A program made the position numbers and the translations under genes. This document shows positions 10,281 to 42,337 of a DNA stretch of 64,000 nt, piece by piece. The stretch spans positions 3,579 to 67,578 of the IMG/VR virus record IMGVR_UViG_3300009158_000048; one strand, given 5' to 3'. Each line of letters opens with the position of its first letter. Position 1 is the first letter of the stretch. The notes under the pieces were generated by a model. It was not told where the DNA came from, did not search any database, and saw only the letters and a list, made by a program, of their open reading frames with translations. This stretch comes from a virus.

Positions 10281-10925
10281 ATGGCGGCTAAAATGACAAA
10301 AAAACAAATGGGTGGAATGCACGTGATGCAGGATGGCTCAATGATGAAAAATTCCATGATGAAAAAAGGTGGCGCTAAAAAGAAAATGAAAACAGGTGGT
10401 ACTCCACCATCTCCTTCAAAAATTAAAGGTCAAGCTTTAAAAATGTGGGGTGATGAAAAAGCACTTACGGGTGCTATGCTTAAAGATGCTGCTGAAAAAT
10501 CTAAAAGTCAATCTTTAGGTATAAATAAAAAGGATACTCTTTTTGGTGATCATGCAATTATAAAATTAATAAATCAAAAGAATTCTGCTCAAGATGATAA
10601 AGGTAAATCAGGAGCTCAATTAAAAGCAGAAGGTTTAGCAAAGAAAAAAGTTGGTGATGCACAAAAAGCAGCAGGTAAAAAATTAAAAGAAATAGGTGAT
10701 GCTAAAAGAAGGGCTGGTGAGAAAATGAAATATGGCAAAACTGGTGGTATGGTTAAAAAAATGAAAACAGGAGGAATGGTTAATTCAAATGCTCTTGTTT
10801 CAGTAACTAAAGTTTCAAGAGGAAGACCGGTTAAATCTGCTGAACCTAAATCTGCTGCTAAAAAAGCAACAGGAAGAGTAGGTGGTACTAGTAAAGCTCC
10901 TAAAAATGCAACTCCTAAAAAATAA
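10281..10925 (+). CDS. Lys-rich basic protein with xxxGG repeats
   Basis: KQMGG, MKKGG, MKTGG x2, GKTGG; low-complexity K/A/G/M composition. Confidence 0.7.
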   Translation: MAAKMTKKQMGGMHVMQDGSMMKNSMMKKGGAKKKMKTGGTPPSPSKIKGQALKMWGDEKALTGAMLKDAAEKSKSQSLGINKKDTLFGDHAIIKLINQKNSAQDDKGKSGAQLKAEGLAKKKVGDAQKAAGKKLKEIGDAKRRAGEKMKYGKTGGMVKKMKTGGMVNSNALVSVTKVSRGRPVKSAEPKSAAKKATGRVGGTSKAPKNATPKK

Positions 10926-10930
10926 ATAAA

Positions 10931-11110
10931 ATGGCACAATACACAACTGGGAAAATTAACAACCCAAATGCAAGCGTAGAAGTACAAAAAGTTCCTGGTA
11001 GTAAAGGAGTATTTGTTAATCTTAATCAACCAGCTACTGTACAAACAGTTGCTAAAGGAAGATCAGGTGGAACAAGTGTAGCTCCTAAATCAGCTGAACC
11101 AGGGAAATAA
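10931..11110 (+). CDS. 59-aa basic protein (not in ORF track)
   Basis: ATG 10931 to TAA 11110 gives MAQYTTGKINNPNASVEVQKVPGSKGVFVNLNQPATVQTVAKGRSGGTSVAPKSAEPGK. It fills the gap exactly and resembles the C-terminus of the upstream protein. Confidence 0.75.
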   Translation: MAQYTTGKINNPNASVEVQKVPGSKGVFVNLNQPATVQTVAKGRSGGTSVAPKSAEPGK

Positions 11111-11115
11111 TTATT

Positions 11116-11454
11116 ATGCCTAAAGATGCATGTTATTCTAAAGTAAAAGCACAGTACGCTGTGTTTCCTTCAGCTAGAGCTTCTCAAGCAATTGCCAAAT
11201 GCCGTAAAGGTTCTGGTACTGTTAGAAAGACAAAAGCTGGAGCAGACTTGAAAAGATGGCAAGCAGAGAAATGGCAAGATACAAAATCAGGAAAAGCTTG
11301 TGGAGCCGGTGGTAAAAATGAATACTGCCGGCCAACAAGAAAAGTATCTAAGGATACACCTAAAACAAAGTATGAACTAACTCCTTCTAAACTAGCTGCT
11401 AAAAAAGCTGAGAAGTCTAAAGTAGGAATGGGAAGAAGAGTTAAAAATGTATAG
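11116..11454 (+). CDS. small basic protein (KDACY..VK / LKRW..EKW.D type)
   Basis: Recognised from memory as a small-protein type seen in aquatic phages; Cys- and Lys-rich. Confidence 0.65.
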   Translation: MPKDACYSKVKAQYAVFPSARASQAIAKCRKGSGTVRKTKAGADLKRWQAEKWQDTKSGKACGAGGKNEYCRPTRKVSKDTPKTKYELTPSKLAAKKAEKSKVGMGRRVKNV

Positions 11455-11456
11455 TT

Positions 11457-11684
11457 ATGGCAATTAGAAAAACAACGGCTAAGAAAACGCCTGCTAAGAA
11501 GGCATCAGTAAGCACAACTATTTCTGCAACACCAAAAGCAGAAATGAGAAAATGGGAAATTGAATCTGCTTTAAGTACATTAAAGAGAGCAGATGAGATT
11601 AGAAAAAATACTAAGATGATGGCTGATGTTAAAAAATTAGCTCAGGAACAAATGAATGTTCTTAAAACTTTTGGAACTAAATAA
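11457..11684 (+). CDS. small basic hypothetical protein
   Basis: Tightly packed ORF with a K/A/T-rich N-terminus and helical C-terminus. Confidence 0.65.
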   Translation: MAIRKTTAKKTPAKKASVSTTISATPKAEMRKWEIESALSTLKRADEIRKNTKMMADVKKLAQEQMNVLKTFGTK

Positions 11685-11686
11685 TC

Positions 11687-12205
11687 ATGGCACAGGCAAA
11701 AACTAAGAAAGTAAAAGTTACTGCAGGTGGTGAAAAACATGTAATTTATAAAAAGACTACAAAGAGAGGAGAAGGAAAAGTTGGTGACATTATGGTAAAT
11801 CATCCTACTACAGATAAAGGAGTATGGGATACTATTGACTTAACAAAAAAAGCAGGAGCTAAAACTGTTAAGCAAGGTGTTGCATCAACTAAGAAATGGC
11901 ATAAAGAAAATCCTTATCCTAAAATGGCAAAAGGAGGTTCTACACCAGCATGGACAAGATCAGAAGGTAAGAATCCAACAGGTGGATTAAATGCAAAGGG
12001 AGTAGCTAGTTATAGAGCAGCAAATCCTGGAAGCAAACTTCAGACAGCTGTGACAACTAAACCATCAAAACTTAAACCTGGAAGCAAAGATGCTAACAGG
12101 CGCAAAAGTTTTTGTGCTAGAATGTCAGGGATGCCTGGACCAATGAAAGATGAAAAAGGAAGACCAACTAGAAAGGCTCTTTCTTTAAGAAAATGGAACT
12201 GTTAA
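11687..12205 (+). CDS. basic two-module protein, C-terminal module DUF6321-like
   Basis: C-terminal module TPAWTRSEGKNPTGGLNAKG...RRKSFCARMSGM...LRKWNC starts right after the KMAKGG linker; family name recalled from memory. Confidence 0.6.
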   Translation: MAQAKTKKVKVTAGGEKHVIYKKTTKRGEGKVGDIMVNHPTTDKGVWDTIDLTKKAGAKTVKQGVASTKKWHKENPYPKMAKGGSTPAWTRSEGKNPTGGLNAKGVASYRAANPGSKLQTAVTTKPSKLKPGSKDANRRKSFCARMSGMPGPMKDEKGRPTRKALSLRKWNC

Positions 12206-12217
12206 AATATATATATC

Positions 12218-12670
12218 ATGGCAACAAAAAAATGTATGAGCTGCGGAGGCTCAATGAGTAAAATGAAAAAAGGTGGATCAAGTAAATCTTGTCCTCCAGG
12301 ATATCACTGGACCGCTGGAGGTTGTGATAAAACAACTCCTCAATCTAAAGGCCCCTTATCATCTGCTAGTGCTAGATTAGGTCTAGGTACTATAGTAGGA
12401 ATAGCCGCTTCTGGTATTACTGCTGCCCTTGCAAAAAAGAGAGCTGCAAAGAAACTTGAAAAAGAAGTTGCTGCTAAAAAAGCAGAAATGACAAAGCAGA
12501 AAAAAGGCGGAGCTATTAAGAAATATGCAATGGGAGGTTTTGCTCCTGCACAAAAAGGTGGTAGCAATACTAAAATGGGAATTTATGGAATTCCTAACGC
12601 AGGTGGAACCGGACCTGAAACAATGAAGAAAGGTGGTGCAATGAAATCTAAAACAATTAAAAAGAAATAG
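12218..12670 (+). CDS. Lys-rich xxxGG-repeat protein with one hydrophobic segment
   Basis: Five xxxGG motifs, a CPPGYHW...C mini-module, and hydrophobic LGLGTIVGIAASGITAALA. Confidence 0.65.
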   Translation: MATKKCMSCGGSMSKMKKGGSSKSCPPGYHWTAGGCDKTTPQSKGPLSSASARLGLGTIVGIAASGITAALAKKRAAKKLEKEVAAKKAEMTKQKKGGAIKKYAMGGFAPAQKGGSNTKMGIYGIPNAGGTGPETMKKGGAMKSKTIKKK

Positions 12671-12672
12671 TT

Positions 12673-13044
12673 ATGGCAACAATGGATGATTCATGTATGG
12701 AAACTGTCATGGTAGACGGTAAACCAAAAAGAAGAAAAAAGAAAAGTGGATGTAAACAAACATTTGGGCGTAGAAGTATTCCTGAAGGAGTTAAAAAAGT
12801 AGCAAAAGCTGCAGCTGTAATTGGAGGGGGTGCCTTAGCCTATGCTAAAAATGCATTTGGTGTAAAAGATAAAGTTAAAGAACTTATGGGTCAGAAGAAA
12901 GGTGGAGCTGTTAAGAAAATGGCTAAAGGTGGTTCATTAAAACCAGTTCCTTCAGACAAATCAAATTCACTTGGTAAATTACCTACAGCTGTAAGAAACA
13001 AAATGGGCTTTCAGAAAAAAGGTGGTACAGTTAAAAAGAAATAA
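12673..13044 (+). CDS. Lys-rich xxxGG-repeat protein
   Basis: QKKGG, MAKGG, QKKGG; module LKPVP...LGKLPTAVRNKMGF lies between two GG motifs. Confidence 0.65.
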   Translation: MATMDDSCMETVMVDGKPKRRKKKSGCKQTFGRRSIPEGVKKVAKAAAVIGGGALAYAKNAFGVKDKVKELMGQKKGGAVKKMAKGGSLKPVPSDKSNSLGKLPTAVRNKMGFQKKGGTVKKK

Positions 13045-13046
13045 TC

Positions 13047-13334
13047 ATGGCAACTAGAGCTGTAAAAACTTCTTGTAAAAACACAAAGGTAAGATCTGCT
13101 AGCGGGTCATGTGTTAAAGAAAGACCATCAATGAAGAAGGGTGGTCAAACTGCTAAGTTAGCAGAAGCTCCTGTTATGTTAATGAAGAAAGGTGGGTCTA
13201 CTGATAAAAAATGGATTCAAAAAGCAATCAATCCTGCACACAAAGGATATTGCACACCAATGACTAAACCTACATGTACACCAAAGAGAAAAGCTTTGGC
13301 TATCACATTAAAAAAAATGGCTAAAAATAGATAA
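13047..13334 (+). CDS. Lys-rich xxxGG-repeat protein
   Basis: MKKGG x2 followed by a KWIQKAI...KRKALAITLKKM module. Confidence 0.65.
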   Translation: MATRAVKTSCKNTKVRSASGSCVKERPSMKKGGQTAKLAEAPVMLMKKGGSTDKKWIQKAINPAHKGYCTPMTKPTCTPKRKALAITLKKMAKNR

Positions 13335-13335
13335 C

Positions 13336-13962
13336 ATGAAAAAGACAAATAAAACAAATCCTATTACTTGGTTTAGGGAACAAAATGAAAAAAGAGAAAA
13401 GCTTGTTAAAGGCTCTATGAAGAAGTTTGCAATGGGCGGACCTGAAGGAGGACCTGAAGATCCACCAACAGTACCAGCAGCTCCTAAACCAACTGATACA
13501 AATAGTTCTACTACTACTGATGCAGCATCTGCAGAAGCTGCTGCAGCTAAAGCAAAAGCAGCAAGAGATGCGGCAATTGCTGCAAAGATGGCTCAAAGTG
13601 GTAAACAAAAAAGACAACTTAATAAAGCTACAAGACAAGTAAATAGAGATGATATTAGACAGGCTAAAGTTGAAAAGAAAAAAGAAGATATAAAGTCTGG
13701 TGCACATGGTGAAAAAACTGCTAAAAGACTAGATATTCTTTCTAATACTCTTGGTATAGTTGATAAATCTTTAGGAGTAATTAATAAAGGAAAAGAAACA
13801 TTTGGTCCTCAAAGAAAAGGTGGTGCTATTAAAAAAATGGGTTATGGTGGAATACCTGAAATGCCTAAGAAAAAAGCAGTAAGACCTGTAGCACCTTCTA
13901 CTAGCCCTGGTCCAATTGGAAAAATAAAAAAGGGTGGATCCGTTACCCGTAAAAAAAGATAA
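13336..13962 (+). CDS. Lys/Ala-rich xxxGG-repeat protein
   Basis: FAMGG, QRKGG, MGYGG, IKKGG motifs. Confidence 0.65.
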   Translation: MKKTNKTNPITWFREQNEKREKLVKGSMKKFAMGGPEGGPEDPPTVPAAPKPTDTNSSTTTDAASAEAAAAKAKAARDAAIAAKMAQSGKQKRQLNKATRQVNRDDIRQAKVEKKKEDIKSGAHGEKTAKRLDILSNTLGIVDKSLGVINKGKETFGPQRKGGAIKKMGYGGIPEMPKKKAVRPVAPSTSPGPIGKIKKGGSVTRKKR

Positions 13963-13965
13963 GAA

Positions 13966-14664: not shown

Positions 14665-14669
14665 AAATA

Positions 14670-15122: not shown

Positions 15123-15124
15123 TT

Positions 15125-15154
15125 TTGTTATATCAAAAACTTTTACTATATTAT
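15125..15154 (+). promoter_or_regulatory. candidate promoter TTG-N19-TATATTAT
   Basis: Intergenic element resembling the Bacteroidota -33/-7 promoter architecture. Confidence 0.5.
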
Positions 15155-15188
15155 AGTATATTATATTATTAACTAAAAACAAAACAAA

Positions 15189-16838: not shown

Positions 16839-16863
16839 TCAAGTAACTCAATTTTAAAAACAT

Positions 16864-16901: not shown

Positions 16902-16912
16902 ATACAATACTT

Positions 16913-17473: not shown

Positions 17474-17493
17474 ATTATTAAAACCAACTAATT

Positions 17494-22668: not shown

Positions 22669-22671
22669 GAA

Positions 22672-24019: not shown

Positions 24020-25059
24020 TGGATTTTAATTACACACTTAAGTATAGAACATTTGATCAGTTGTTTGAAGATGTTACTATTGACCTAAATACATTTGCTC
24101 TTGAAAACATGATAGAGCCTCAGCAACTTATTAAGTTAGCAAGAAAGCTGAATTATGAATTAGGTCTTAGAATAAATCAACAAAAAGAAATTGTTCTTGA
24201 TGTATGTCATGGGAAAGTTAAACTTCCTGATGATTTTTATGTGTGGAATTATGCAATGATATGTGATCAATATACAGATACTGTAGTTGGTTATGATGGA
24301 TTTGCTGGAGGAACTAATATGCAAGAAGTAAGATATCAAGAAGTTCCAGCAAATGTAGATCAGTGTGCATTACCTACTGTTAACTGTAGAACATGTAATT
24401 CTAATCCATGTAATCATACTGCCGCATGTGATCTTAATCATCCTATAGTAGATCCAATACCAACTGCTTATGACCCCTTAAATCCTACAGGTAATACATG
24501 TATTGCTCCAAGAGTATTTATGAATTGTAAAGGAGAAAAATGGGAACTTATTCAGGTAATCAATCCTTCAGTTACAAGAACATACAGATCTTTGCGTCCA
24601 TTACGTATGATAAGAAGTCAGGAAATTAATTGTGATTGTCCAAATTTGTATTTTAATACAAATGATCAAGGATGGTTAAAAGGAGGTTTCTTGTTTACTA
24701 CATTTGACACAGGTAAAGTATATATTAATTACATGGGAGAAATGGAAGATGATCAAGGACAGTTGATGGTTCCTGATCATGCTTTAATAAATGAGTATTA
24801 TGAATATGCTCTTAAAAAAAGAATCATAGAGAACCTTGCACTTAACGGAGAAGATGTAGCACAAAGATTACAGATACTACTTCCTGACTATAAAGCTGCA
24901 AGAAATCAAGCGCTTAGTTTAGTTAATACTCCAAACTTCAGAGAGATGGAAGAACTTTGGTGGACAAATAGACGCGCACAGTATTCAAAATATTATGATA
25001 TGTTTAAATCATATCAGAGAGGTAATTATACAAGAACTAGCAATAATAGAATTATCTAA
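24019..25059 (+). CDS. tail tubular / ring protein with Cys-rich insert
   Basis: VKLPDDF and GKVYINYMG...DDQGQLMVPD motifs as in crAss-like tail tubular proteins; translationally coupled (TAATG). Confidence 0.6.
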   Translation: MDFNYTLKYRTFDQLFEDVTIDLNTFALENMIEPQQLIKLARKLNYELGLRINQQKEIVLDVCHGKVKLPDDFYVWNYAMICDQYTDTVVGYDGFAGGTNMQEVRYQEVPANVDQCALPTVNCRTCNSNPCNHTAACDLNHPIVDPIPTAYDPLNPTGNTCIAPRVFMNCKGEKWELIQVINPSVTRTYRSLRPLRMIRSQEINCDCPNLYFNTNDQGWLKGGFLFTTFDTGKVYINYMGEMEDDQGQLMVPDHALINEYYEYALKKRIIENLALNGEDVAQRLQILLPDYKAARNQALSLVNTPNFREMEELWWTNRRAQYSKYYDMFKSYQRGNYTRTSNNRII

Positions 25060-33400: not shown

Positions 33401-36199
33401 ATACAATCAGTAGATGAAGTTTGGGCAGCACCTATTGCTATACCAGCTGCTCTTGAAGGTATTGGTGCTTTAGCAGCATTAGAAATTCCAGGTCTTGGAG
33501 CAACAGTTGGTCAAGCAGTTAATGCGGGATTTGTTGCTCATGGTATAACTAAACTACCTGAGACAGGTGGAGCTTGGTATGATGCCTATAAATCTGGAAC
33601 AGGAGACTATAGAGATGCTATTGAAAAAACTTTTTGGAATGCATTAGATTTTGCTGGAGCAGGTGAATTAAAAAGTCCACTTAAACTACAAGCAGCAACT
33701 GCTGAAAAAGCATTAGCTGAAACACCATTACAAAAGTTTATTGGTAAGACTGGAGTAACTGCTGAAGAAATAGCTAATACTCATGTTGATGACTTTGATC
33801 CAATGGCATTTACAGATGACTTTGACAAGCTTCATACAGAAGGCTATCTGCAAGATGATTTAGCTGAAGCATTCCGTAGAATGGAAAATAGATCTAATCA
33901 ACTACCTGAACCACAAGTTGGAGAAATGATAAATCATCCTTTTCAAAACCGTGTTGTACCAATAGAAAATATTTCTAATGAAATAGATTATTTCCATCTT
34001 AAAGCAAGTCCAGAGAATATAGGCTATCCAGCTGCAAGAAATAGTGATCATTGGAATCAATTAAATAATGATTCTAGATTTTTTGTAAAACGCACAGATA
34101 GAAATGCTCATGCTATGGTAGATATGCCAATAAGTTTTGGGGAAGATTTACAAGATTTTCAAATGTTACCTATACCTATTGATAAGCTTGATCAATTTAG
34201 AATAAAACCAGCACTTGCTGGTGATGGATCAAAGGCCGCTCTAACAGCAGAAAGAGATTGGCTAATGGATGAGTATAAAAGTCTTGGTTTAGAAAAATAT
34301 GGTGATGATTATATAAATCATGCACCACATGACATTGGTCAAAGAGCATATGAGTTAGAAGCTGAAATTACAGCATTAAATAATAGATTAAGAACACAGG
34401 TTCAAAATGCAACAACATCTTCACCAGCTGCTGCGGATATAATGAATTTTAGAAATCAACCTGGATACATTAGTTCAACAGAACAAGCGGCAGTTGATAA
34501 TGCTTTTACAACTAGAGTACAATTACCAGTTGATGATATTGAAGAGTTTGCACATAATCCTTTTGCTGGATTACGCGGAGAAAGAGATATTGAAATAACA
34601 CCACTTAGAAGGGATACTGCATTGCGTATAAATAGTAATGTAGTTCCAGGAACAGGAGGTAGAACAGTTGCTGAAACTCTTGCAATGCATGACAATCCTT
34701 TAAATGCTATGATTGATGTGAGAAGATTTGCACAAGAAGGCATCATTGGTGAAAACAGTGCTGCAGATCTAATGACATATTTAAGACAGGAAATTAAAAA
34801 AATGCCTATAAAAGGTGATGAGAAAAAATTCTTTATAAAAGAAGCTAAAAGAATAAGTAATGTTCCAAAAGATGTTCCATATACAGGATCAGCATTGACT
34901 GATAGGGAACTTGATAAGTTAATGACAGCAATACCTCTTGAAGAACGTGAAGCTATACTTGCTAAGTATGGATATACTGTTGATGACTTAATTCAGTTTG
35001 ATGGTAAGTATGGAGCTAATGATCAATTAATGAACGTTGCACAAAACCAAGTATATGATGATATAAGATATTTTAAAGACCATGGTATTCCAAATCCTAA
35101 TCCTCCAGCTATTAATTTTAAAACTGGTGAAATATCTGATCTTTTAAAAGAAGACAATGAACTTGTTAATATTGGACTATCTGAAGAAACCTTAAAAACC
35201 ATTAATGAAACAAGATACCCTGGTACATTAAATGAACAAAGGGTAAAACCAAAAACTTCAGGTGTAGTAGAATATAATTATGTTGAAGAACAACAAATTC
35301 ATAAACTAAAGGATCCTAGTATAATTCCAGAAACAAAAGATCTTGATAAACTAATTAAAAGTTATGAAGAAGCAGTATCTAAATTACAAGATGGAGATCT
35401 TAAAGATGCATTAACAACACAACTTGAAGATTATAAAAGTACTAAATGGCTTAGAACAGAATATGCAGATGAATTAAAAGCTCAAGGACTTACACCAAGT
35501 GAAATTGAAAAAGCTTCAATTATTTCAAATCATGGGGGTAGAAAAAATATAATTGATGGAAAAGGAAATGTTGTTGGTACGTTAAATGCATATGCTGCAA
35601 AAACTTATGAAGGAACAAAAGGTTTTAAAATTGGAAGTACCGGAGTAAATTATAAATTTCACCCCTATAACTTAAAGCATAGTAAGTTTAAAAGCTGGGA
35701 TAAGGCACAAGAATATTTTGAAAAACAAATATTAGAAAAGAATTTAGCTACTATTACAAATGAAGCTGATAGGACAAATCCTATTATGATAAAACACTTT
35801 AAAAGACAAGCTAAAGTAAAAGCGGAAGAACTTGTAAAACAACTTCAAGATAACAATAATAACAGATGGGGTGAAGCATTATACCGTGGAGTACATCATG
35901 GTGTAAAAGATACTAAAGGTCCAGTATTTACAGATCAACATTTTGTAAGCACTAGTTTACCTGATGCATTTACTGGTACAAGAATTGAAAGGTATAGAGC
36001 CGAAGATTATTGGAATAGTCAAATGAAACAACTTAATGAACTAGGAGTTCCAAAAGCTGCAGCAGTTAAAATGCCTTCAACACATCCGGCATACAGTCAG
36101 TATGATATAAATGATTTAAATAATTTACCTCCAACAAATCTTGTTATTAAAAGAAAACAAGGAGGAGATATTGATAAACTAAATAAGTTTATTTATTAA
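30422..36199 (+). CDS. large modular virion cargo protein with two zincin-like HExxH domains
   Basis: HEWSH (31307) with downstream ETRAR and HEQLH (32195) with downstream EGEAR; eight xxxGG motifs; hydrophobic Ala/Gly segment. Confidence 0.6.
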   Translation: MYNKKLLKNIVDGLDKAKKPKAAKDIIYDPKGQWKHPGEVTRIPSSSITMKGVGYPVLGVPNKGAPSMMQPNQDYNFPNADYVDEYPHMDGGGQIYTYAARPGSYYKKDVNGKWLIKNEGTKGKYVAVDDPKGTRTKALNAQAKPMPAKKPAVQQSKYDPLHDTSSVQKANTTQVSNLIKRDTPEFITNPIKYKHDQEVKAKKEVRTKVQDKNKKVKQFYEEYHESPRYTEMIQNSDPENWTDFYFGRKENLKGPRVVVKDKQPLDSPNTGGFSMSDTGWITVLPQGQGVNGLLPHEWSHSTDRPLNPWAINPYTNKRYNLGNNNNDRLIPAKDQQWIAKHRTNDWYHSPEFQKLPLEEKKIEWRNVNDPWYKANAQQQKEWYDYVGEDTETRARLNDIRYQSKERGIYDPFTEKVSPATYKKLLNTKFESGDKEGFDALKQLKDVYTDEEIQWMLNNISKNENQEEDVNEGMARKGGSLKSKKYTRNLDGTNYLFAESSLFKKPKKLSKKRIFHPHAKYYKTGGESGCPEGYAFNPVTGECVEWDPEVWDSEEQATSYDPVGDVIYMNPNDRPEGMSDEEYQQMYQDQLEHEQLHRLQWVNGDLKGRTGTPLRMPSTVDNQEYDGDHYYNRRSEDESDLGNYWMEQHPNEANFIPGDVLYDKVINPAMYEVPWTSEGEARGYEYNVHDGMPSFFPKKKKGGAYYDDSRDAWVDADGTVGPNGPANYQDGGDYIEADLTPEEIQEYAKGGYIVEDISIPSLNQKQVGGPQGPPLLVNNALLTSNQKIAAAAHTSPTRENAAKLQSLKDQKVKEEADKAARIAAYKKKQAEEKAKAEGIARWYEEEKKRRAEEEVLFGNNGVQASDATRVDIGYLSPLVGIAKREEQDKRNQEDKIYNSQQNAIKKGYKTIYDYENDPMGAQWDKAQANEAAWLQSGAERPMVNTGEMGYNKGFTNDKSGWDPITKKYYTKTGIYDPKTKKWKPNPSYFKGSGAIQSVDEVWAAPIAIPAALEGIGALAALEIPGLGATVGQAVNAGFVAHGITKLPETGGAWYDAYKSGTGDYRDAIEKTFWNALDFAGAGELKSPLKLQAATAEKALAETPLQKFIGKTGVTAEEIANTHVDDFDPMAFTDDFDKLHTEGYLQDDLAEAFRRMENRSNQLPEPQVGEMINHPFQNRVVPIENISNEIDYFHLKASPENIGYPAARNSDHWNQLNNDSRFFVKRTDRNAHAMVDMPISFGEDLQDFQMLPIPIDKLDQFRIKPALAGDGSKAALTAERDWLMDEYKSLGLEKYGDDYINHAPHDIGQRAYELEAEITALNNRLRTQVQNATTSSPAAADIMNFRNQPGYISSTEQAAVDNAFTTRVQLPVDDIEEFAHNPFAGLRGERDIEITPLRRDTALRINSNVVPGTGGRTVAETLAMHDNPLNAMIDVRRFAQEGIIGENSAADLMTYLRQEIKKMPIKGDEKKFFIKEAKRISNVPKDVPYTGSALTDRELDKLMTAIPLEEREAILAKYGYTVDDLIQFDGKYGANDQLMNVAQNQVYDDIRYFKDHGIPNPNPPAINFKTGEISDLLKEDNELVNIGLSEETLKTINETRYPGTLNEQRVKPKTSGVVEYNYVEEQQIHKLKDPSIIPETKDLDKLIKSYEEAVSKLQDGDLKDALTTQLEDYKSTKWLRTEYADELKAQGLTPSEIEKASIISNHGGRKNIIDGKGNVVGTLNAYAAKTYEGTKGFKIGSTGVNYKFHPYNLKHSKFKSWDKAQEYFEKQILEKNLATITNEADRTNPIMIKHFKRQAKVKAEELVKQLQDNNNNRWGEALYRGVHHGVKDTKGPVFTDQHFVSTSLPDAFTGTRIERYRAEDYWNSQMKQLNELGVPKAAAVKMPSTHPAYSQYDINDLNNLPPTNLVIKRKQGGDIDKLNKFIY

Positions 36200-36206
36200 A
36201 TTAAAA

Positions 36207-36219
36207 ATTAGTATATTTA
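36207..36219 (+). promoter_or_regulatory. candidate promoter core (ATTAGTATATTTA)
   Basis: Intergenic variant of the TTWGTATATT element. Confidence 0.35.
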
Positions 36220-36235
36220 GATATATAGTATAATT

Positions 36236-39200
36236 ATGGCAAAAGTAAGAATACGTAGAGCTGGTCCTGGGGAAACTGCAGGATACTATAATAAGACAGC
36301 TATGTACTTAAAAAAAGCACAGATGGGACAAGAAGTACAAGCAGAAGAAGGTCAAGGACAAACACAAGATGAAATGGTTCAGGCATATTATATGTATGCT
36401 GAAGAACAGTTATCAAATGATATGTCACCTGATAAGGTGTATACTGAACTTGTAAGTAATGGTTTACCGGAAAAGATTGCATATCAGATGATTACATCTC
36501 TTATGGATAAACTTGTTGATGAAGGTGTTGTTAATCCAGACTATAAAAGAAACAAAGAAGATCAAGCTGCTGAAGAACAAAAAAGTCAAGAACAACAAGG
36601 TCAACAAGAACAAGCTCCAGCAGAACCATCAGCTGATCAACAACAACAAGATCAATCAATGTTTGAAGAAGATCAAGCCGCTGCTGATGCAGAAGAGGGG
36701 TACATTCAAGATAGGTCTTATATGCAAGATGGTGGTTATACAGAAGATGAACTTGCCGGTCAAAGTAATATAATGGATCAGTATAATCAAGTTAAAGATA
36801 ATGATACTGAACAGTTTGATTTTCAAGAACTAATAAGTAAAACTCCTGGTATTCAAGCTGGTTTAAACTTTCCAAGTTTAAGTGAATACATACCAGATTA
36901 TCAAGAACTTAAATGGAATAATATTGATGCTTTACAACCTACGCAAGATGATCAAAATTCATCACAACAACTTGATTCACAAAGAGTTGGTGGTATGGTT
37001 AGAAAAAAACAGTTTGTTAAAAATGTAATGTCTCTTTTGAAAAAACAAGCTGGAGGAGATGCTGCTGAACAACCAATGCAACCTGGACAAGAGGCAGCAC
37101 CTGAAGAAGAAAATAAAGATACCACATTAGGTAAAGGTAATCCAATGGATACACTTACGGAAGATGTTCAGAAACATAAAAATAATTTTTTAGGAGCTCT
37201 TAAAACTAAAGCAACTACAGTCAAAACAGAAGAGATGTATGACAAGTTGAAGAAGTCTAATGATCCTGCTTTGCAACAAATGGGAATGCAAGGAGAACAA
37301 CCAGAACAACAACCATTTCATCAAACAGGTGGTATGACTGGTGGTCAAGATCCATTGTTTAAATTTCTTGGTGGTGGTCAAGATTTTCAAGAAGACCCTA
37401 ATTACTATGAAGCAGATTTTTTACCTGAAGCAAAGTATGGTTATTCTACAGGAAACTTAAGAAGAGCTAAGGATGGTGTTGGTGTTGGTTTACATATAGA
37501 AACTGTTTATACTAATCCTCCAACTTATATTGTAAGAGATGAGGATGGTAAAGAAGTATTTAGTTCAAAAAATCCAGGTGAAGCCCAATCCTTTAAGGAT
37601 GGTAATAAAGAATCAAGTAATTCAGGAACGCATATTAATCCTGCTACAGGTAAAGCATTTACAAAAGAAGAATGGGATGCTGCATCTGCAAATAATAGAA
37701 AGATAGTTGAAGATGCAACTAATGGAATGTCTAAAAGACAAAAGGAAGCATGGATTCAACAACAACTTTATCTTAGACAACAACAACCAAGAGTAAATGC
37801 TGATGGAATTCCTATGGGTAGATATATTCCTCATTATGTAACTACTCCAGGAACATCCTTAAGAAGTTTAACTCCATGGAATCCTATATTCCAGTCTTCA
37901 GGTTTTACTGCTCAAAGAGGTAATCCTTATATGTATGGAACTAATACACCTTACATGGATCCATTAACTGGAATGAAGCCTGTTGCTAGACAAGTAACAA
38001 AAAGAGGTATGTTTGGAAGACCAAAAAGATATACTGATATTTATTCTATTTCAGGATTTCAAGGAGGTCAAGATGATAAAGGAAACGGAAACATAATAGC
38101 TGACGGTAATACTTTAATATTTCCACAAAGGGATTCAAAAGGTCATATAGATATATCTAATCAAGAACGTAATAGTGTTACTAGAGGTTTGAGTGCAAAT
38201 GCACAAGAAGCAATTAGAATGGGTGACAGACAAATGGATAGAAATGATAGGAGACTAGCAAGACATCCTGAATTACTTGATTCTGGTGTTGATAATAAAA
38301 CTGATGAGCAAGATGTACAAGAGTTTCAAGCCCGTCAAAAAGCACAAGGTAAAGTTTGGAATGAACAAACTGGACGTTGGGAAATAGCAAAAACAGAAGC
38401 AAGTGATCCTAATAACACTATGTTACTTGAAAGAAATCAACCTATTGAAACAGAAAGAGAACAACCTATTCAACCGGAACAAGGTGGTAACAATGTTGGA
38501 CCAATGGTAGATGGAGAAATGGCTTATGGAGGTTATATACCTCAAGGACGTTGGATGCCTAAAGCATCTGGAGGAATTGAGATCAATGATCCTAGCGCTC
38601 CTCAACCGCAACCAGGTAATCCTGATCTTGCAATGGGTACTCAACAAGCAGGGTTTATGGGTGATGTTACCCAAGGACCTAATAGTTCTTGGGGTGCAAT
38701 GCAATCATTTAATGCACCACCTCCAGCAGCCCCTGCAAGTATTCAAGCATACAATAATGATCCTATGAACAACATGACTGTTGAACCTGAGGGTGATGAT
38801 TTATCTAATTGTACAGAAGAACAAAAAAGAGATACAACTAGTAAATGTTATCAAGCTGGTCAACAAACTAAACTTGTTGGAGTAGACTTTGAAAGAAGTA
38901 AAAATAAAACTATTGATCCTGAAGCGGGAGTAAATGTTTTAAATGCAGGTGTCAGAGGTGTAACAGGATTCTTAAATAGAAAAGATGAGAAGAGAAAAGA
39001 AAAACAGATGTATGATAACTTATCATCTGATAATCTTTATGCTTCTCAAAGTACTAAACACCGTGGGGACTGGGTTGATATTGGATCTCAAGCAGGTCAA
39101 TACCGTTTTGATCAAATGGGTCAAGATAGAAGTGGTTTCTCCTCTTATGGTAAATATGGAGGATACATGCAAGATGGCGGAGAACAAGCTTACCTATCAG

Positions 39201-39313
39201 GAGATGACTTTCCTTCAGAAGATCCTCAATACAATGAAGGTGATGAAGTTTACATGACTGAAGATGATGTCAAAAACTTTATGGCTAATGGTGGACAAAT
39301 TGAATATTTATAA
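36236..39313 (+). CDS. Q/E-rich, largely disordered putative cargo protein with xxxGG motifs
   Basis: About ten xxxGG motifs; N-terminal KVRI shared with the next gene. Confidence 0.6.
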   Translation: MAKVRIRRAGPGETAGYYNKTAMYLKKAQMGQEVQAEEGQGQTQDEMVQAYYMYAEEQLSNDMSPDKVYTELVSNGLPEKIAYQMITSLMDKLVDEGVVNPDYKRNKEDQAAEEQKSQEQQGQQEQAPAEPSADQQQQDQSMFEEDQAAADAEEGYIQDRSYMQDGGYTEDELAGQSNIMDQYNQVKDNDTEQFDFQELISKTPGIQAGLNFPSLSEYIPDYQELKWNNIDALQPTQDDQNSSQQLDSQRVGGMVRKKQFVKNVMSLLKKQAGGDAAEQPMQPGQEAAPEEENKDTTLGKGNPMDTLTEDVQKHKNNFLGALKTKATTVKTEEMYDKLKKSNDPALQQMGMQGEQPEQQPFHQTGGMTGGQDPLFKFLGGGQDFQEDPNYYEADFLPEAKYGYSTGNLRRAKDGVGVGLHIETVYTNPPTYIVRDEDGKEVFSSKNPGEAQSFKDGNKESSNSGTHINPATGKAFTKEEWDAASANNRKIVEDATNGMSKRQKEAWIQQQLYLRQQQPRVNADGIPMGRYIPHYVTTPGTSLRSLTPWNPIFQSSGFTAQRGNPYMYGTNTPYMDPLTGMKPVARQVTKRGMFGRPKRYTDIYSISGFQGGQDDKGNGNIIADGNTLIFPQRDSKGHIDISNQERNSVTRGLSANAQEAIRMGDRQMDRNDRRLARHPELLDSGVDNKTDEQDVQEFQARQKAQGKVWNEQTGRWEIAKTEASDPNNTMLLERNQPIETEREQPIQPEQGGNNVGPMVDGEMAYGGYIPQGRWMPKASGGIEINDPSAPQPQPGNPDLAMGTQQAGFMGDVTQGPNSSWGAMQSFNAPPPAAPASIQAYNNDPMNNMTVEPEGDDLSNCTEEQKRDTTSKCYQAGQQTKLVGVDFERSKNKTIDPEAGVNVLNAGVRGVTGFLNRKDEKRKEKQMYDNLSSDNLYASQSTKHRGDWVDIGSQAGQYRFDQMGQDRSGFSSYGKYGGYMQDGGEQAYLSGDDFPSEDPQYNEGDEVYMTEDDVKNFMANGGQIEYL

Positions 39314-39322
39314 TTTCACAAG

Positions 39323-42300
39323 ATGTTAAGAAAAGTAAGAATTAAAAGACTGCCTCAAGCAAGAACTGGATACCAAGTACGTGGTTCATTATATAATGAT
39401 GTACCTTCTATGGGAGGTGGTGCTGACTATAATGCTTACATGGGGGAACCAAAACTTCAGGCAAGCAAATATATAACTGCTGTTCCAAGAGAAGACGCTA
39501 ACTTAGAAGCTGAAGGTGGAGAGACTGTATACGGTGACATCAATGGTGATGGTATGCCGGAACACAAAACCATTAAAGGTCCAAGACATAGTGAAGGTGG
39601 TGTACCATTAAAGTTACCAGATGATAGTTTTATTTTCAGTGATACAAAATCAATGAGAGTAAAAGAACCTGAGTTCTTAGCAATGTTTGGTAAAAAGAGT
39701 GGTTCATATACTCCCGCTGATTTAGCTAAACAGTATGATATTGAAAGATATAGAAAGATTTTACAAGATCCTAACTCAGATGTATTAGATAGAAAGACTG
39801 CAGAATTAATGCTTAAGAATTATACACTTAAGTTAGGAGCTCTTGCATTAGCACAAGAATCTAAAAAAGGATTTCCTCAAGGAATTCCAGCTGTTGCTCA
39901 ACCTTATATGCAAGCAATGGGTATCAAAGAAGAAGATGTTCTTCCGGAAAAACAAATAACAGATACTATACAACAGTTAGATCAACAACAACAACAATCT
40001 AATGATCAAAGAAGTGCAGATACTATGGCTTCTCCTACTGAACAACAAGATGAACAGTATGGGGCCGGAGCTGAAGAAGCACAAATGATGAATAGTGACC
40101 GTCCTGTGGCACAACCAGAGCCTATGCAAGATGAAGCTGCAGGTATGACACCAGAAGAAACGCAGATGCGTTATGGAGGAATGTCTCAGTATGCACATGG
40201 TGGATGGATGCCAGAAGAGATTGCTACATTTACAGGTAGTGTTCCTGAAGCAGCTTATGGTATGGCTATGGGAGCTAATCCACAAAACTATCAAGGACGT
40301 ACTAAACAACTTAGAGGTGCTTCCCGTTTCTTTAGTGAGGGTGGTTATTTACCAAAAGCAGCAAATGGTTTTGAAGTTGATGTAACCGGTATGACACCAG
40401 AACAAAGAGAGCGCGCATTATATGAGGCAAGAAAAGCTCATGCTGGTCAAGACATCATTCAAGTTGATAATGGTAAAAAAGGAAAAGTAACATATTCTAA
40501 AACAGGAAGTACAGATGTAGAAGGTGTTGACATGACTACATTTGGTAAAACACCAACGTCAGTTGCTGCTGCAGCTCAATACAAACTTCTTGAGAATAGT
40601 ATGAAGGATTCTGACATCAAGAAAAAACTTTGTGATGAGACTCAGGCTTCCCTAAAGGACCCAAAATCATACACAGGTAAAGGAGGAAAACCACAAAAAA
40701 CATGGGAACAAAGAGGCTATAAGATGCCAGACTGTGACGAAATTGCACAACAATTCTTAACACACCAAAAAAGAAACTTATCATTCCAAGGTCAAGGTAT
40801 TGATTCAAAATTATTTACAGATACAGGACAAGGTCTTGCATCTGCAGAGGATATCTTAAAAAGAAAAGCTATGAATCCTGAAACAGGTCAACCTGTTAAA
40901 GATTTAGCTGAGGCAACAAAAGTTAAAGAATACATGCGTACTACTTATGGTGGTGGCCGTGGTGGTGCTTATGGAAAACCAGGAGATGTAAAAGATGTTT
41001 CTATTGATGAGGTATCTGGTAAACTTGGTGTTCCATTAGATAATGATACTAAGACTAGAGCTTTACAACAAGCTACCTTCCATGGTTATGCACACATGGC
41101 TGAGAATAGAGGTAACTATGATGCGGACTTACAATATAAAACCCGTAACTTCTTAGGTGATCTTCAAGCAGGTGTGAATGATGAAAGCAGTATGGCAGGT
41201 GTATTTAACACTAAAGGTGTTCAGATATCTCCTATTGATGACTTTTATAAACCACAAGAAGGTAAGTATGGTAATACTACATTGGGTCACTTAGCTGGAA
41301 CAGGTCTTGACAAATATGATGTTGAAGACATTGTAGAAGGACCATGTCAATGTACTGATCCAACAGGAAAGATAGGACCATACAAACCAATGGTTGATGG
41401 TAAATGTTCATGTGATCCGGTAGAAAAGAAAAAATGTCCATGTATAAAACCTGATGGTACAAAAGTTGAATTAGAACCAGATCCTAATACTGGTATATGT
41501 CCTCCATGTGATGAGCCTGTAGAAGTTAAGAAACCAGCTGAATGGTGGTTACAAGATACTATTAAAACTACTGGAGCTTTTGGTGACTTAATGGGAATTA
41601 AAAAGCAAATGCCGTGGGCCCCTAGGGTAGATCTAGAGACTCCGCGTCCTACTTTCTTGGATCCTACAAGAGAACTTGCTGCTAATGCAGAACAAGCAAA
41701 CATTCAAACTCAAGGTGCAGCACAGTTTGCTGGACCACAAGCAATGTCTGCTAGATCATCTTCTGTTCAAGGACAAGCTTCTAAAAATGCTGCTGATATC
41801 CTTTCAAGATATAATAATGCAAATGTTAATACTGCAAATCAATTTGAGATGCAGGCAACAAACATTAGAAATCAAGAACAAGGAATGAACCAAGCTGCTA
41901 CTCAAAGAGTTTATGATCAAAATACAATGGCTAATCAACAATATGATAATGCTAAGTTGGCCATGAGAAACAATATGAGAAACCAGTATACTAATGCTGT
42001 TACAAATAGAGCTAAGACAGATGCAATGAATCAAATGTATCCACAGTTTGCTGTAAGTCCTGGTAATGGAGGCTTCATGCATTTTACTGAAGGACGTGAA
42101 CTTACAGGAGAAGCTTCTGGAAAAGGTGCCGACTACTGGACAGAAAGACAGAAATGTGTTGATGCGGGTGCAGAAGATCCGGATGCATGTGCTAAGAATG
42201 CTGTAGCTAATGCCGGAGGTGGTGGAGGCGGAACAGATAAATCTGAAGTTCTTAAACAAATGTATGGCAAAAGAGGCGGGCAAATGAAAGAAGGAGGTTT

Positions 42301-42337
42301 TATGTATGGAGATATTACTTATCCCTTTCTCATGTAA
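39323..42337 (+). CDS. putative virion cargo/ejection protein
   Basis: N-terminal EAEGGE...GPRHSEGGV...FIFSD module, xxxGG motifs, Cys cluster and Q/N-rich helical C-terminus. Confidence 0.6.
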   Translation: MLRKVRIKRLPQARTGYQVRGSLYNDVPSMGGGADYNAYMGEPKLQASKYITAVPREDANLEAEGGETVYGDINGDGMPEHKTIKGPRHSEGGVPLKLPDDSFIFSDTKSMRVKEPEFLAMFGKKSGSYTPADLAKQYDIERYRKILQDPNSDVLDRKTAELMLKNYTLKLGALALAQESKKGFPQGIPAVAQPYMQAMGIKEEDVLPEKQITDTIQQLDQQQQQSNDQRSADTMASPTEQQDEQYGAGAEEAQMMNSDRPVAQPEPMQDEAAGMTPEETQMRYGGMSQYAHGGWMPEEIATFTGSVPEAAYGMAMGANPQNYQGRTKQLRGASRFFSEGGYLPKAANGFEVDVTGMTPEQRERALYEARKAHAGQDIIQVDNGKKGKVTYSKTGSTDVEGVDMTTFGKTPTSVAAAAQYKLLENSMKDSDIKKKLCDETQASLKDPKSYTGKGGKPQKTWEQRGYKMPDCDEIAQQFLTHQKRNLSFQGQGIDSKLFTDTGQGLASAEDILKRKAMNPETGQPVKDLAEATKVKEYMRTTYGGGRGGAYGKPGDVKDVSIDEVSGKLGVPLDNDTKTRALQQATFHGYAHMAENRGNYDADLQYKTRNFLGDLQAGVNDESSMAGVFNTKGVQISPIDDFYKPQEGKYGNTTLGHLAGTGLDKYDVEDIVEGPCQCTDPTGKIGPYKPMVDGKCSCDPVEKKKCPCIKPDGTKVELEPDPNTGICPPCDEPVEVKKPAEWWLQDTIKTTGAFGDLMGIKKQMPWAPRVDLETPRPTFLDPTRELAANAEQANIQTQGAAQFAGPQAMSARSSSVQGQASKNAADILSRYNNANVNTANQFEMQATNIRNQEQGMNQAATQRVYDQNTMANQQYDNAKLAMRNNMRNQYTNAVTNRAKTDAMNQMYPQFAVSPGNGGFMHFTEGRELTGEASGKGADYWTERQKCVDAGAEDPDACAKNAVANAGGGGGGTDKSEVLKQMYGKRGGQMKEGGFMYGDITYPFLM

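What the first reader, a model, noticed from the sequence alone, without database searches (positions are those of the whole stretch)
10281..42337. A recurring xxxGG motif punctuates small basic proteins and giant cargo proteins: candidate processing or packaging code
Seen: about 20 copies of a motif such as MKKGG, MAKGG, QKKGG, YAMGG or MKTGG in six small genes (10281-13962). About 23 more occur in three unrelated large proteins: MARKGG, YYKTGG, KKKKGG, YQDGG, YAKGG, RKQGG in 30422..36199; MQDGG, HQTGG, MAYGG, GKYGG, MANGG in 36236..39313; MRYGG, YAHGG, FSEGG, MKEGG in 39323..42337. The copies sit at module boundaries. The DUF6321-like, KWIQKAI and LKPVP modules each begin just after a GG, each zincin domain is bracketed by GG motifs, and several proteins end a few residues after one. 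Established: adenovirus protease cuts (M/L/I)xGG|x and ASFV polyproteins are cut at GG|x. Inference: this phage tags internal virion proteins with a di-glycine motif used as a maturation cleavage site or capsid-loading signal, making these genes polyproteins of swappable cargo modules.
Basis: partly seen in the sequence, partly recalled or inferred. Interest (0 to 1): 0.85.

Follow-up and report, generated by a model that had tools for sequence, protein, structure and literature searches.

The report
Gly-Gly seams in phage cargo proteins
An uncultured crAss-like phage marks the ends and joints of the modular proteins it probably carries inside its particle, and many tiny basic proteins beside its capsid gene, with one short peptide ending in two glycines; the pattern is real and I found no description of it, but the evidence leans towards an uncut hinge or docking handle rather than a protease cutting site.

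Summary
The window is part of an environmental crAss-like phage: terminase, portal, capsid and muzzle genes. The motif is real. [MYF]-x-x-G-G occurs 13 times in the eight small Lys-rich proteins (1.1 expected) and 13 times in the three post-muzzle proteins (3.2 expected). It is not enriched in the other 22 proteins (9 vs 7.5). Relatives show the same enrichment. Mosaic junctions cluster at the GGs. New here: in cargo proteins 1 and 2, paired GGs frame a ~30-residue strand-helix-strand mini-domain, found in 1151 protein clusters. Its second 'GG' keeps only one invariant Gly and lies in the confidently modelled stretch. Five protease families gave 0 of 5 near-complete relatives each. In cultured crAss001, gp45 carries a variant motif, x-A-[YF]-G-G. 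One copy is inside the continuous cryo-EM fragment 425-552. The virion-RNAP-like giants lack the motif. I read it as an uncut module cap and hinge, probably a docking handle. Cleavage is not excluded. This scan noted the same motif earlier in at least eight other crAss-like genomes. I found no published description.

The parts
10281..10925 (+). Small Lys-rich protein (214 aa, 22% K), 6 GG, 3 strict motifs, tandem YGKTGG-MVKK-MKTGG; 12 residues after last GG
10931..11110 (+). 59-aa ORF (below the 60-aa listing limit) resembling the post-GG tail of the preceding protein; ends 12 residues after a GG
11116..11454 (+). Small basic protein, Pfam DUF5872 (E 1.3e-12); one GG, no strict motif
11457..11684 (+). 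Small basic protein (75 aa) of the same cassette, no GG
11687..12205 (+). Small basic protein with MAKGG at 80-84 followed by Pfam DUF6321 (residues 94-170, E 1.2e-24)
12218..12670 (+). Small basic protein, 8 GG, 4 strict motifs incl. paired QKKGG-AIKK-YAMGG; ends 10 residues after MKKGG
12673..13044 (+). Small basic protein, paired QKKGG-AVKK-MAKGG; ends 5 residues after QKKGG
13047..13334 (+). Small basic protein, two MKKGG
13336..13962 (+). Small basic protein, FAMGG near the N-terminus, paired QRKGG-AIKK-MGYGG, ends 7 residues after IKKGG
25059..30422 (+). Muzzle protein (context: fixes the next genes as the cargo position)
   Evidence: Pfam crAss_MUZ E 3e-29; weak BLAST to crAss001 gp44
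30422..36199 (+). Cargo protein 1 (1925 aa), mosaic. Alignment breaks with relatives fall at residues 87-95, 473-476, 525-528, 721-734 and 767-773. GGs lie at 91-93, 477-478, 524-525, 730-731 and 767-768. Two HExxH motifs at 296 and 592.
32594..32689 (+). Internal copy of the strand-helix-strand mini-domain (aa 725-756 of cargo 1), framed by YQDGG and YAKGG. In relatives of 751 and 759 aa the protein ends with this domain, so this gene looks like a fusion.
   Evidence: (E 1e-10)
36236..39313 (+). Cargo protein 2 (1025 aa), acidic, 5 strict motifs
39152..39310 (+). C-terminal mini-domain of cargo 2 (aa 973-1025): GKYGG-YMQDGG ... MTEDDV..FMANGG-QIEYL-stop
   Evidence: (E 2e-9)
39323..42337 (+). 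Cargo protein 3 (1004 aa). Motifs at 282-286, 290-294 and 337-341 lie in a low-confidence linker (208-347) just before a folded domain (350-610). Tail motifs at 985 and 991.

Best explanation
The Phi-x-x-G-G peptide (Phi = Met, Tyr or Phe) is an uncleaved boundary element of the internal, probably ejected, proteins of this crAss-like lineage.

The hydrophobic residue caps or anchors the neighbouring module. The Gly-Gly makes a tight turn or hinge. Each protein is therefore a chain of separately folding or docking beads. Such a chain can be stored extended in the particle and threaded out through the tail. Beads can also be swapped by recombination without damaging their neighbours.

In cargo proteins 1 and 2, two such seams and a helix make a ~30-residue strand-helix-strand mini-domain. 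It closes the protein at its C-terminus and persists at fusion joints.

The small Lys-rich proteins beside the capsid gene carry the same seam in tandem and near both ends. I infer that they are co-packaged partners of DNA or of the acidic cargo, held by the same kind of contact.

Shown: enrichment, conservation, position at mosaic junctions, the mini-domain, and the absence of five protease families.

Inferred: that the seams stay uncut, that they dock, and that these proteins are in the virion at all.
For: Enrichment is confined to two sets of proteins. Small proteins: 13 vs 1.13. Post-muzzle proteins: 13 vs 3.19. Other 22 proteins: 9 vs 7.51. It is repeated in relatives: 294 vs 31.2 and 352 vs 75.9.

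Mosaic junctions lie at GGs. In the cassette, 54% of 286 junctions are within 6 residues of a GG, against 28% for random positions. In the cargo proteins, 34% of 660 are within 5 residues, against 10%. The window's own breaks match GG positions.

Seams are conserved in cargo 3: GG285 is kept in 42 of 46 sequences, with Met at -3 in 43 of 46.

AlphaFold2 of cargo 3 (mean pLDDT 57.9) puts motifs 282-341 in a low-confidence linker that ends about 9 residues before a confident domain at 350-610.

The mini-domain:
- An HMM finds it at the C-terminus of cargo 1 and 2 in nearly all relatives, plus an internal copy.
- It occurs in 1151 clusters at E <= 0.001, with 2-6 copies per protein among the 150 best listed.
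- Only the Gly before the aromatic residue is invariant; the other Gly is often Q, D, L or R.
- The first GG is absent in some copies.
- AlphaFold2 gives a mean pLDDT of 93 for residues 21-40, which include the second GG.

crAss001 gp45 has x-A-[YF]-G-G four times against 0.10 expected (0 of 5000 shuffles). The paper's two assigned ordered fragments start at such a motif: 425-552 begins A-F-G-G, and 214-245 begins 4 residues after GG210.

No C5, C48, C39, S78 or S77 protease in 5 near-complete relatives.
Against: Nothing shows directly that the seams are uncut in this phage.

The lineage has no cultured relative in the GenBank phage set by my probes (the best capsid match is 28% identical).

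Homology of the three proteins to crAss001 gp45 or gp46 was not detected, and the gp45 motif is a variant. The strict pattern is not enriched there (3 vs 1.23). The crAss001 evidence is therefore by analogy.

HExxH motifs kept in relatives leave a candidate protease.

The cargo 3 model is poor overall, and the mini-domain model is 58 residues with pTM 0.40.

Half of the cassette proteins in relatives lack the motif.

No binding partner is known.
Confidence: 0.5

Rival explanations
1. The seams are protease sites. A phage enzyme cuts after Gly-Gly during maturation or after injection. This would release small basic peptides and separate enzymes from polyproteins. The enzyme might be the HExxH (zincin-like) modules of cargo 1 or of the giant RNAP-like protein.
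For: The motif lies at module joints and near termini.

HExxH at 296 and 592 of cargo 1 is kept in 3 relatives (HELSH twice, HENFH once). YHEAFH is shared by the window's giant ORF (aa 868) and crAss001 gp47.

Iyer et al. 2017 (PMC5512222, passages read) predict that zincin-like peptidases process polyvalent phage proteins. They cite P1 DdrB as cut before packaging.

GG|x cutting by adenain, the ASFV protease and others is established knowledge (recalled).
Against: No Pfam family matches the HExxH regions even at E <= 10.

0 of 5 relatives have C5, C48, C39, S78 or S77.

The hydrophobic residue is at P5, not the P4 of adenain sites.

One Gly of the second site is freely replaced, and the site lies in the stretch modelled at mean pLDDT 93.

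The gp45 fragment 425-552 runs through A-F-G-G.

crAss001 virion gels show bands of about 150, 270 and >300 kDa as well as 85 and 100 kDa. The band assignments are in a figure I could not see.

Free N-termini do not map to the residue after GG.
Confidence: 0.2
2. The motif is a dedicated loading tag. One receptor site in the procapsid (portal, scaffold or capsid interior) recognises Phi-x-x-G-G, and any protein that carries it is packed. This would resemble the T4 capsid-targeting sequence or an encapsulin cargo-loading peptide.
For: The same short motif occurs on two otherwise unrelated sets of proteins with opposite net charge, about +203 and -99 summed.

It is placed preferentially near the ends. 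In relatives' cassette proteins the last loose motif is followed by 4-9 residues in 49 of 156 (14.7 expected), and the first ends within 30 residues in 93 of 156 (59.9 expected).

The C-terminal tails after the last Gly are conserved per ortholog group.

A 43-aa basic protein with MMKYGG sits next to the capsid gene of pelagiphage HTVC104P.
Against: The RNAP-like giants are not enriched: 0, 0 and 3 copies (expected 0.4, 0.75, 1.5). Their crAss001 counterparts gp47, gp49 and gp50 are packaged. The 7 partial fourth-gene products in relatives have 0 copies.

Many copies are internal.

Half of the cassette proteins lack the motif.

No receptor is identified.
Confidence: 0.15
3. The motif has no function of its own. 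It would be a by-product of Lys/Gly/Met-rich low-complexity sequence and of recombination between short shared stretches, which leaves the same scar at every joint.
For: The cassette after the capsid genes is hypervariable: 1.5-5 kb and 5-10 genes in loci whose capsid protein is over 90% identical. Junctions coincide with the motif. The small proteins are predicted disordered (Atlas model pLDDT 0.53).
Against: Shuffles that keep each protein's composition never reach the observed counts.

The motif also occurs in acidic, non-repetitive contexts with Tyr or Phe in place of Met.

Codons vary, so there is little DNA identity to recombine on.

Seams are conserved among 46 orthologs that are 49-77% identical to the window's protein.
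Confidence: 0.1

Closest known systems
Cargo protein C1 (gp45) of Bacteroides phage crAss001 (Bayfield et al. 2023, PMC10172136)
   Same: The gene lies right after the muzzle gene. The protein is long and partly disordered, with separate short segments docked to the portal and tail rings. It carries a significant Gly-Gly motif (x-A-[YF]-G-G, 4 vs 0.10 expected). Both assigned ordered fragments start at such a motif. It has a basic ...GGTKKAKGGK... C-terminal tail.
   Different: I detected no sequence homology to the window's three proteins. The motif register differs. crAss001 has no cassette of small Lys-rich proteins after its capsid genes in the stretch I read: gp34-36, gp39 and gp40 have 4-8% Lys and 0 motifs. 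The paper does not mention the motif: 0 occurrences of cleav-, proteoly- or protease.
Polyvalent proteins of phages and conjugative elements (Iyer et al. 2017, PMC5512222)
   Same: Large mosaic proteins delivered with the DNA. Enzymatic modules are swapped freely: relatives of cargo 1 carry a Phage_lysozyme module between seams. HExxH modules are present.
   Different: That paper describes domains, not a joint peptide. 'Glycine' and 'linker' occur 0 times in its main text. The HExxH regions here match no Pfam model.
T4 internal proteins with capsid-targeting sequence and gp21 prohead protease; phiKZ-type inner-body proteins (recalled, not looked up here)
   Same: Small basic internal proteins and large internal proteins share one short motif near their ends.
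   Different: Those motifs end in Glu and are cut by a prohead protease encoded in the head module. Here no S77 or S78 family was found (0 of 5), and cutting is not shown.
Adenovirus core-protein maturation by adenain at (M/L/I)xGG|x
   Same: Very basic DNA-associated proteins carry a hydrophobic residue followed by Gly-Gly.
   Different: The hydrophobic residue is one position further away. No Peptidase_C5 or C48 was found (0 of 5). The residues after GG are also conserved.
Encapsulin cargo-loading peptides (recalled)
   Same: Short Gly-containing terminal peptides that load cargo into an HK97-fold shell without being cut.
   Different: Those occur as one copy at one terminus. Here there are many copies, often internal, and no shell contact has been shown.

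Membership tests
Adenain / clan CE type GG|x maturation system | Site consensus with hydrophobic residue at P4: (M/L/I)-x-G-G|x (recalled) | tested here: not met
   Met/Tyr/Phe sits three residues before the first Gly, i.e. at P5 if cut after GG
Adenain / clan CE type GG|x maturation system | A clan CE cysteine protease gene (Peptidase_C5 or C48) | tested here: not met
   0 of 5 near-complete relatives at E <= 1 for PF00770 and PF02902. No protease family appeared in the Pfam or PHROGs scans of the window's proteins that I ran; not every window protein was scanned with Pfam.
Adenain / clan CE type GG|x maturation system | New N-termini after GG in virions | not testable with these tools
   Needs proteomics; no cultured relative found
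Prohead-protease processing (T4 gp21 S77, HK97 S78) | Prohead protease gene in the head module | tested here: not met
   PF03420 and PF04586: 0 of 5 relatives. The gene between portal and capsid (6229..7512) has no Pfam, PHROG or PDB-sequence match.
Double-glycine leader / C39 peptidase | C39 peptidase domain | tested here: not met
   PF03412: 0 of 5 relatives
Polyvalent proteins (Iyer et al. 2017) | Mosaic multidomain architecture varying between close relatives | tested here: met
Polyvalent proteins (Iyer et al. 2017) | Zincin-like metallopeptidase hub domain | tested here: inconclusive
   HExxH is kept in 3 relatives and in crAss001 gp47, but no Pfam match at E <= 10 and no fold was made of these regions
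crAss001 cargo proteins C1/C2 | Gene position directly after the muzzle gene | tested here: met
crAss001 cargo proteins C1/C2 | Sequence or profile homology to gp45 or gp46 | tested here: not met
   BLAST best E 0.015 without composition correction, and none with it. hhalign probability 0.13. Profile against PDB sequences found nothing.
crAss001 cargo proteins C1/C2 | Presence inside the virion | not testable with these tools
   Inferred from gene position only
Pfam DUF6321 and DUF5872 | Score above Pfam's gathering cut-off | tested here: met
   DUF6321 87.2 bits (cut-off 28.5) in 11687..12205; DUF5872 48.8 bits (27.5) in 11116..11454

The most novel reading that the evidence does not exclude
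The seams are a virion-wide processing code. A new kind of phage protease, perhaps the HExxH modules carried in cargo 1 and in the giant RNAP-like protein, would cut after Gly-Gly inside the particle or just after injection. It would release dozens of small basic peptides together with separate enzymes (lysozyme, peptidases). That would be a bacteriophage counterpart of adenovirus core maturation, in the most abundant phage order of the gut and of many waters.
Probability: 0.15. Interest if true: 0.85.

Novelty: new variant of a known kind. Interest (0 to 1): 0.6.

Why it matters
How crAss-like phages choose, pack and eject several megadaltons of protein is an open question (Bayfield et al. 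2023). A short conserved peptide that marks the joints and ends of the early-ejected proteins gives a concrete handle for experiments. It can be mutated, fused to reporters, or sought in unassigned cryo-EM density. It can also be searched for in virion proteomes as cut or uncut.

The ~30-residue mini-domain is in 1151 protein clusters and matched no Pfam model in the two window proteins that hold it. It could serve as a sequence marker for cargo proteins in metagenomes.

If the seams tolerate module exchange, they also explain how these phages vary their injected enzymes so quickly.

Tried and rejected
DNA-level signal (Shine-Dalgarno-like AAAGGAGG or recombination site): rejected, because Gly and Lys codons vary within the motif.

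Identity of cargo 3 with crAss001 gp45: by eye I saw a resemblance around E-G-G ... D-D-x-F-x-F-S-D. BLAST, hhalign and a profile search of PDB sequences did not support it, so I do not claim it.

Fold searches: Foldseek against the PDB with the cargo 3 model and the mini-domain model gave nothing at E <= 0.001.

ESM Atlas look-ups gave only unnamed viral clusters with scores of 0.79-0.85.

Close relatives of cargo 2 by the search for related loci: none. I used the muzzle gene as an anchor instead.

tblastn against GenBank phages found nothing with the 6229 product, the 13047 product or the cargo 1 head.

Complex prediction, mini-domain of cargo 1 against the C-terminal mini-domain of cargo 2: no verdict (score 0.00, controls not run). 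This is no evidence either way.

Mapping N- and C-termini of free-standing proteins onto longer relatives gave broad distributions with no sharp peak at the residue after GG. I use this only as weak evidence.

Literature:
- The first search was swamped by Neurospora crassa.
- Searches found no description of the motif.
- Of Bayfield 2023, Shkoporov 2018, Iyer 2017 and the 2023 Crassvirales review I read passages found by term, not whole texts.
- Figures and supplementary tables were not available. These include the gel band assignments, the gp45 peptide map and Extended Data Table 3, and they may bear on whether gp45 is intact.

Full report
**What the window is.**
The 64-kb window is most of a 67.6-kb contig. 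All long ORFs are on one strand. PHROGs names a large terminase (1177..3378), a portal (3384..6137) and a major head protein (7540..9159). Pfam names the 1787-aa product of 25059..30422 as a crassvirus muzzle protein (E 3e-29). This is therefore an uncultured crAss-like phage.

Its capsid protein is over 90% identical to those of the 80 IMG/VR contigs kept, out of 595 confirmed relatives. Some of those contigs are near-complete genomes of 115-123 kb. The best GenBank phage match is only 28% identical.

The eight (with a 59-aa ORF, nine) small genes at 10281..13962 lie between the post-capsid gene and a ring-type virion gene. The three large genes at 30422..42337 lie directly after the muzzle gene. 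In cultured crAss001 that position holds the cargo proteins C1 (gp45) and C2 (gp46).

The small proteins are 17-22% Lys. Around their 29 GG sites, Met is at -3 in 11 and Lys dominates -4, -2 and -1. Ser, Ala or Thr follow, with Lys at +3 and +4. The 70 GG sites of the control proteins show none of this.

Counts of [MYF]xxGG against composition-preserving shuffles:

| Protein set | Observed | Shuffle mean | Shuffles reaching observed |
|---|---|---|---|
| Eight small proteins | 13 | 1.13 | 0 of 2000 |
| Three large proteins | 13 | 3.19 | 0 of 2000 |
| Other 22 proteins | 9 | 7.51 | 682 of 2000 |

I chose the pattern after seeing the data, so the controls and the relatives are the real test.
- In 305 distinct cassette proteins from 46 other loci the count is 294 against 31.2 +/- 5.3.
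- In 99 distinct proteins encoded after the muzzle gene of 48 loci it is 352 against 75.9 +/- 8.9.
- These relatives are kin, so the numbers show conservation, not independent recurrence.
- Gly codons in the motif follow the genome's usual mix, so the signal is in the protein.
- Only 156 of the 305 cassette proteins carry even a loose form of the motif.

**Position.**
The cassette after the capsid genes is hypervariable. It spans 1.5-5 kb and holds 5-10 genes in loci with near-identical capsid proteins.
- Of 286 internal alignment breaks between cassette proteins, 54% lie within 6 residues of a GG, against 28% of random positions.
- For the post-muzzle proteins, 34% of 660 breaks lie within 5 residues of a GG against 10%. 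For the strict motif the figures are 21% against 4%.
- In the window's cargo 1, the breaks cluster at 87-95, 473-476, 525-528, 721-734 and 767-773. GGs lie at 91-93, 477-478, 524-525, 730-731 and 767-768.
- In relatives' cassette proteins, the last loose motif is followed by 4-9 residues in 49 of 156 (14.7 expected). The first ends within 30 residues in 93 of 156 (59.9 expected).

**The paired motif in cargo proteins is a mini-domain.**
The C-termini of the first and second post-muzzle proteins are conserved across relatives.
- Cargo 1 relatives end in ...KKGG-(I/V)V..L(S/T)..EI..YI..GYIVE(D/E)..-stop.
- Cargo 2 relatives end in ...MQEGG..EGDEV.MTEEEL..F.ANGG.VEY(I/L)-stop.

An HMM built from these tails finds the unit in three places:
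- at the C-terminus of cargo 1 and cargo 2 in nearly all relatives;
- as an internal copy in most cargo 1 proteins;
- in the window, at residues 725-756 of cargo 1 (E 1e-10) and 973-1025 of cargo 2 (E 2e-9).

Relatives of 751 and 759 residues end with this unit, while the window's 1925-residue protein continues beyond its copy. The window's gene therefore looks like a fusion.

In an alignment of 71 copies, the only invariant column is the Gly before the aromatic residue. Its partner Gly is often Q, D, L or R, and some copies lack the first GG altogether.

AlphaFold2 with that alignment gives mean pLDDT 93 for two ten-residue blocks, residues 21-40 of the piece. This stretch has a helix at 26-34 followed by the second GG. 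The flanks score 54-70.

A profile search of 1.84 billion representatives finds 1151 proteins at E <= 0.001. The 150 best listed have 2-6 copies each and are 261-3301 residues long.

Small members read as beads on a string. One of them has a Pfam Phage_lysozyme module between two seams (E 6.9e-5, above the cut-off). Pfam has no model for the unit: searches gave no hit in the two window proteins that hold it.

**Cargo 3.**
1599 homologs were found. Among 46 aligned sequences:
- GG32, GG92 and GG916 are invariant;
- GG285 is kept in 42, with Met at -3 in 43;
- GG293 (11 of 46), GG340 (20) and GG991 (29) vary. At GG991 the Gly before the aromatic residue is the conserved one.

The AlphaFold2 model is weak overall (mean pLDDT 57.9). 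It shows a confident domain at 350-610. The motifs at 282-341 lie in a low-confidence stretch (208-347) that ends just before that domain. The tail motifs lie in another low-confidence stretch.

**Are the seams cut?**
Evidence against cutting:
- Five Pfam protease families were sought in five relatives that CheckV rates 97-100% complete. They were adenain C5, Ulp1 C48, C39, HK97-type S78 and T4-type S77. Each gave 0 of 5.
- No protease family appeared in my scans of the window's proteins.
- The mini-domain data above argue that at least the second GG of each pair is a structural turn.
- In crAss001, gp45 carries x-A-[YF]-G-G four times against 0.10 expected (0 of 5000 shuffles). The strict [MYF]xxGG is not enriched there (3 against 1.23).
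- Bayfield et al. state that residues 425-552 of gp45 are seen bound to the portal and residues 214-245 to the tail rings. In the GenBank sequence, 425-428 is A-F-G-G, and 214 is four residues after GG209-210. Both assigned ordered pieces therefore begin at a seam, and one runs through it.
- The paper's main text has no word beginning cleav-, proteoly- or protease.
- Shkoporov et al. list virion gel bands of 15 to >300 kDa and found gp47, gp49 and gp50 as high-molecular-weight species. I could not see which band was gp45.
- N-termini of free-standing proteins do not map sharply to the residue after GG in longer relatives.

Evidence that keeps cleavage open:
- HExxH at 296 and 592 of cargo 1 is kept in three relatives.
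- YHEAFH is shared by the window's giant ORF and crAss001 gp47.
- Iyer et al. 2017 predict that zincin-like peptidases process such polyvalent proteins.
- On the other hand, these regions match no Pfam model even at E <= 10.

**Is it a general loading tag?**
The three RNAP-like giants (42395.., 46090.., 52205..) have 0, 0 and 3 strict motifs against 0.4, 0.75 and 1.5 expected. The seven partial products of the fourth gene in relatives have none. Their crAss001 counterparts are packaged. The motif therefore marks the small basic proteins and the C1/C2-position proteins, not all cargo.

**Reading.**
I take the seam to be an uncut cap-and-hinge at module boundaries, probably with a docking role (0.5). 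It lets these proteins be stored extended and threaded out, and it lets modules be swapped. The rivals are:
- protease sites (0.2);
- a dedicated loading tag with one receptor (0.15);
- a functionless by-product of composition and recombination (0.1).

That these proteins are in the virion at all is inferred from gene position only.

**Comparison and novelty.**
The closest known object is crAss001 C1, by gene position, by its variant motif and by its piecewise docking. I detected no homology to it. The architecture fits the polyvalent-protein theme of Iyer et al.; in that paper 'glycine' and 'linker' occur 0 times.

T4 or phiKZ-type targeting and cleavage motifs, adenain sites and encapsulin loading peptides are analogies that I recall from memory and did not test beyond the protease searches.

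I found no description of the motif or the mini-domain in these searches:
- 2 papers, both on Porphyromonas phages, seen as a listing only;
- DUF6321, 0 papers;
- Crassvirales plus 'cargo proteins' since 2023, 5 papers hold the terms, 3 listed;
- the 2023 Crassvirales review, where proteoly-, protease and peptidase occur 0 times.

This scan's earlier notes describe the same 'Gly-Gly seams' in at least eight other crAss-like genomes, also without settling cut versus uncut. What I add:
- the mini-domain and its single invariant Gly;
- the crAss001 fragment boundaries;
- the five protease searches;
- the absence of the motif from the RNAP-like cargo;
- the occurrence of DUF6321-type small basic proteins, and one motif-bearing 43-residue protein, beside structural genes of unrelated aquatic phages.

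Noticed in passing
window 10931-11110 (+): A 59-aa ORF, just under the 60-aa listing limit. Its product resembles the last ~50 residues of the preceding 214-aa protein (N.NA.V.V.KV ... G..GGTS.APK). The same module therefore exists free and fused.
   Followed up: partly
window 11687-12205 and 11116-11454; L130, L131, L132: The DUF6321 protein matches 537 GenBank phage records: T4-like cyanophages, pelagiphages and Methylophilales phages. In the three annotated records I inspected (S-CAM4, HTVC104P, MEP401) it sits among small genes in or near structural modules. In pelagiphage HTVC104P it follows the capsid gene, preceded by a 43-aa basic protein with MMKYGG and KGHGG. Small basic DUF6321/DUF5872 proteins look like a widespread accessory of aquatic phage head modules.
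   Followed up: partly
window 30422-36199, aa 296 and 592; 52205-64000, aa 868; L081 gp47 aa 2157: HExxH motifs are kept in relatives (HELSH, HENFH). A YHEAFH motif is shared by the giant RNAP-like ORF and crAss001 gp47. None matches a Pfam peptidase model.
   Followed up: partly
window 36236-36300 and 39323-39390; L081 gp45 N-terminus: Cargo 2 and cargo 3 start with a similar basic leader (M-A-K-V-R-I-R-R / M-L-R-K-V-R-I-K-R). It is conserved in relatives. crAss001 gp45 starts M-A-K-K-K-I-K-R-R.
   Followed up: no
window 39323-39655 (aa 1-111 of cargo 3): The N-terminal 111 residues are the most conserved part of the protein, with dozens of invariant columns in 46 sequences. AlphaFold2 nevertheless gives pLDDT below 50 throughout. 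They may fold only on a partner.
   Followed up: no
P0188, P0203 (relatives of cargo 1): Short relatives of cargo 1 carry a Phage_lysozyme module between two mini-domain copies. The first post-muzzle protein may therefore deliver a cell-wall enzyme in some phages.
   Followed up: partly
window 10281-13962 versus 30422-42337: Summed net charge (K+R-D-E) is about +203 for the nine small proteins and -99 for the three post-muzzle proteins. The two motif-bearing sets are thus charge-complementary.
   Followed up: no
L134 (Leptolyngbya phage Lbo-JY46, PP438436): The nearest GenBank phage by capsid protein (28% identity over 99% of the protein) is a 125-kb cyanobacterial phage. It has the same terminase-portal-(gene)-capsid order but no small basic cassette after the capsid genes.
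   Followed up: no
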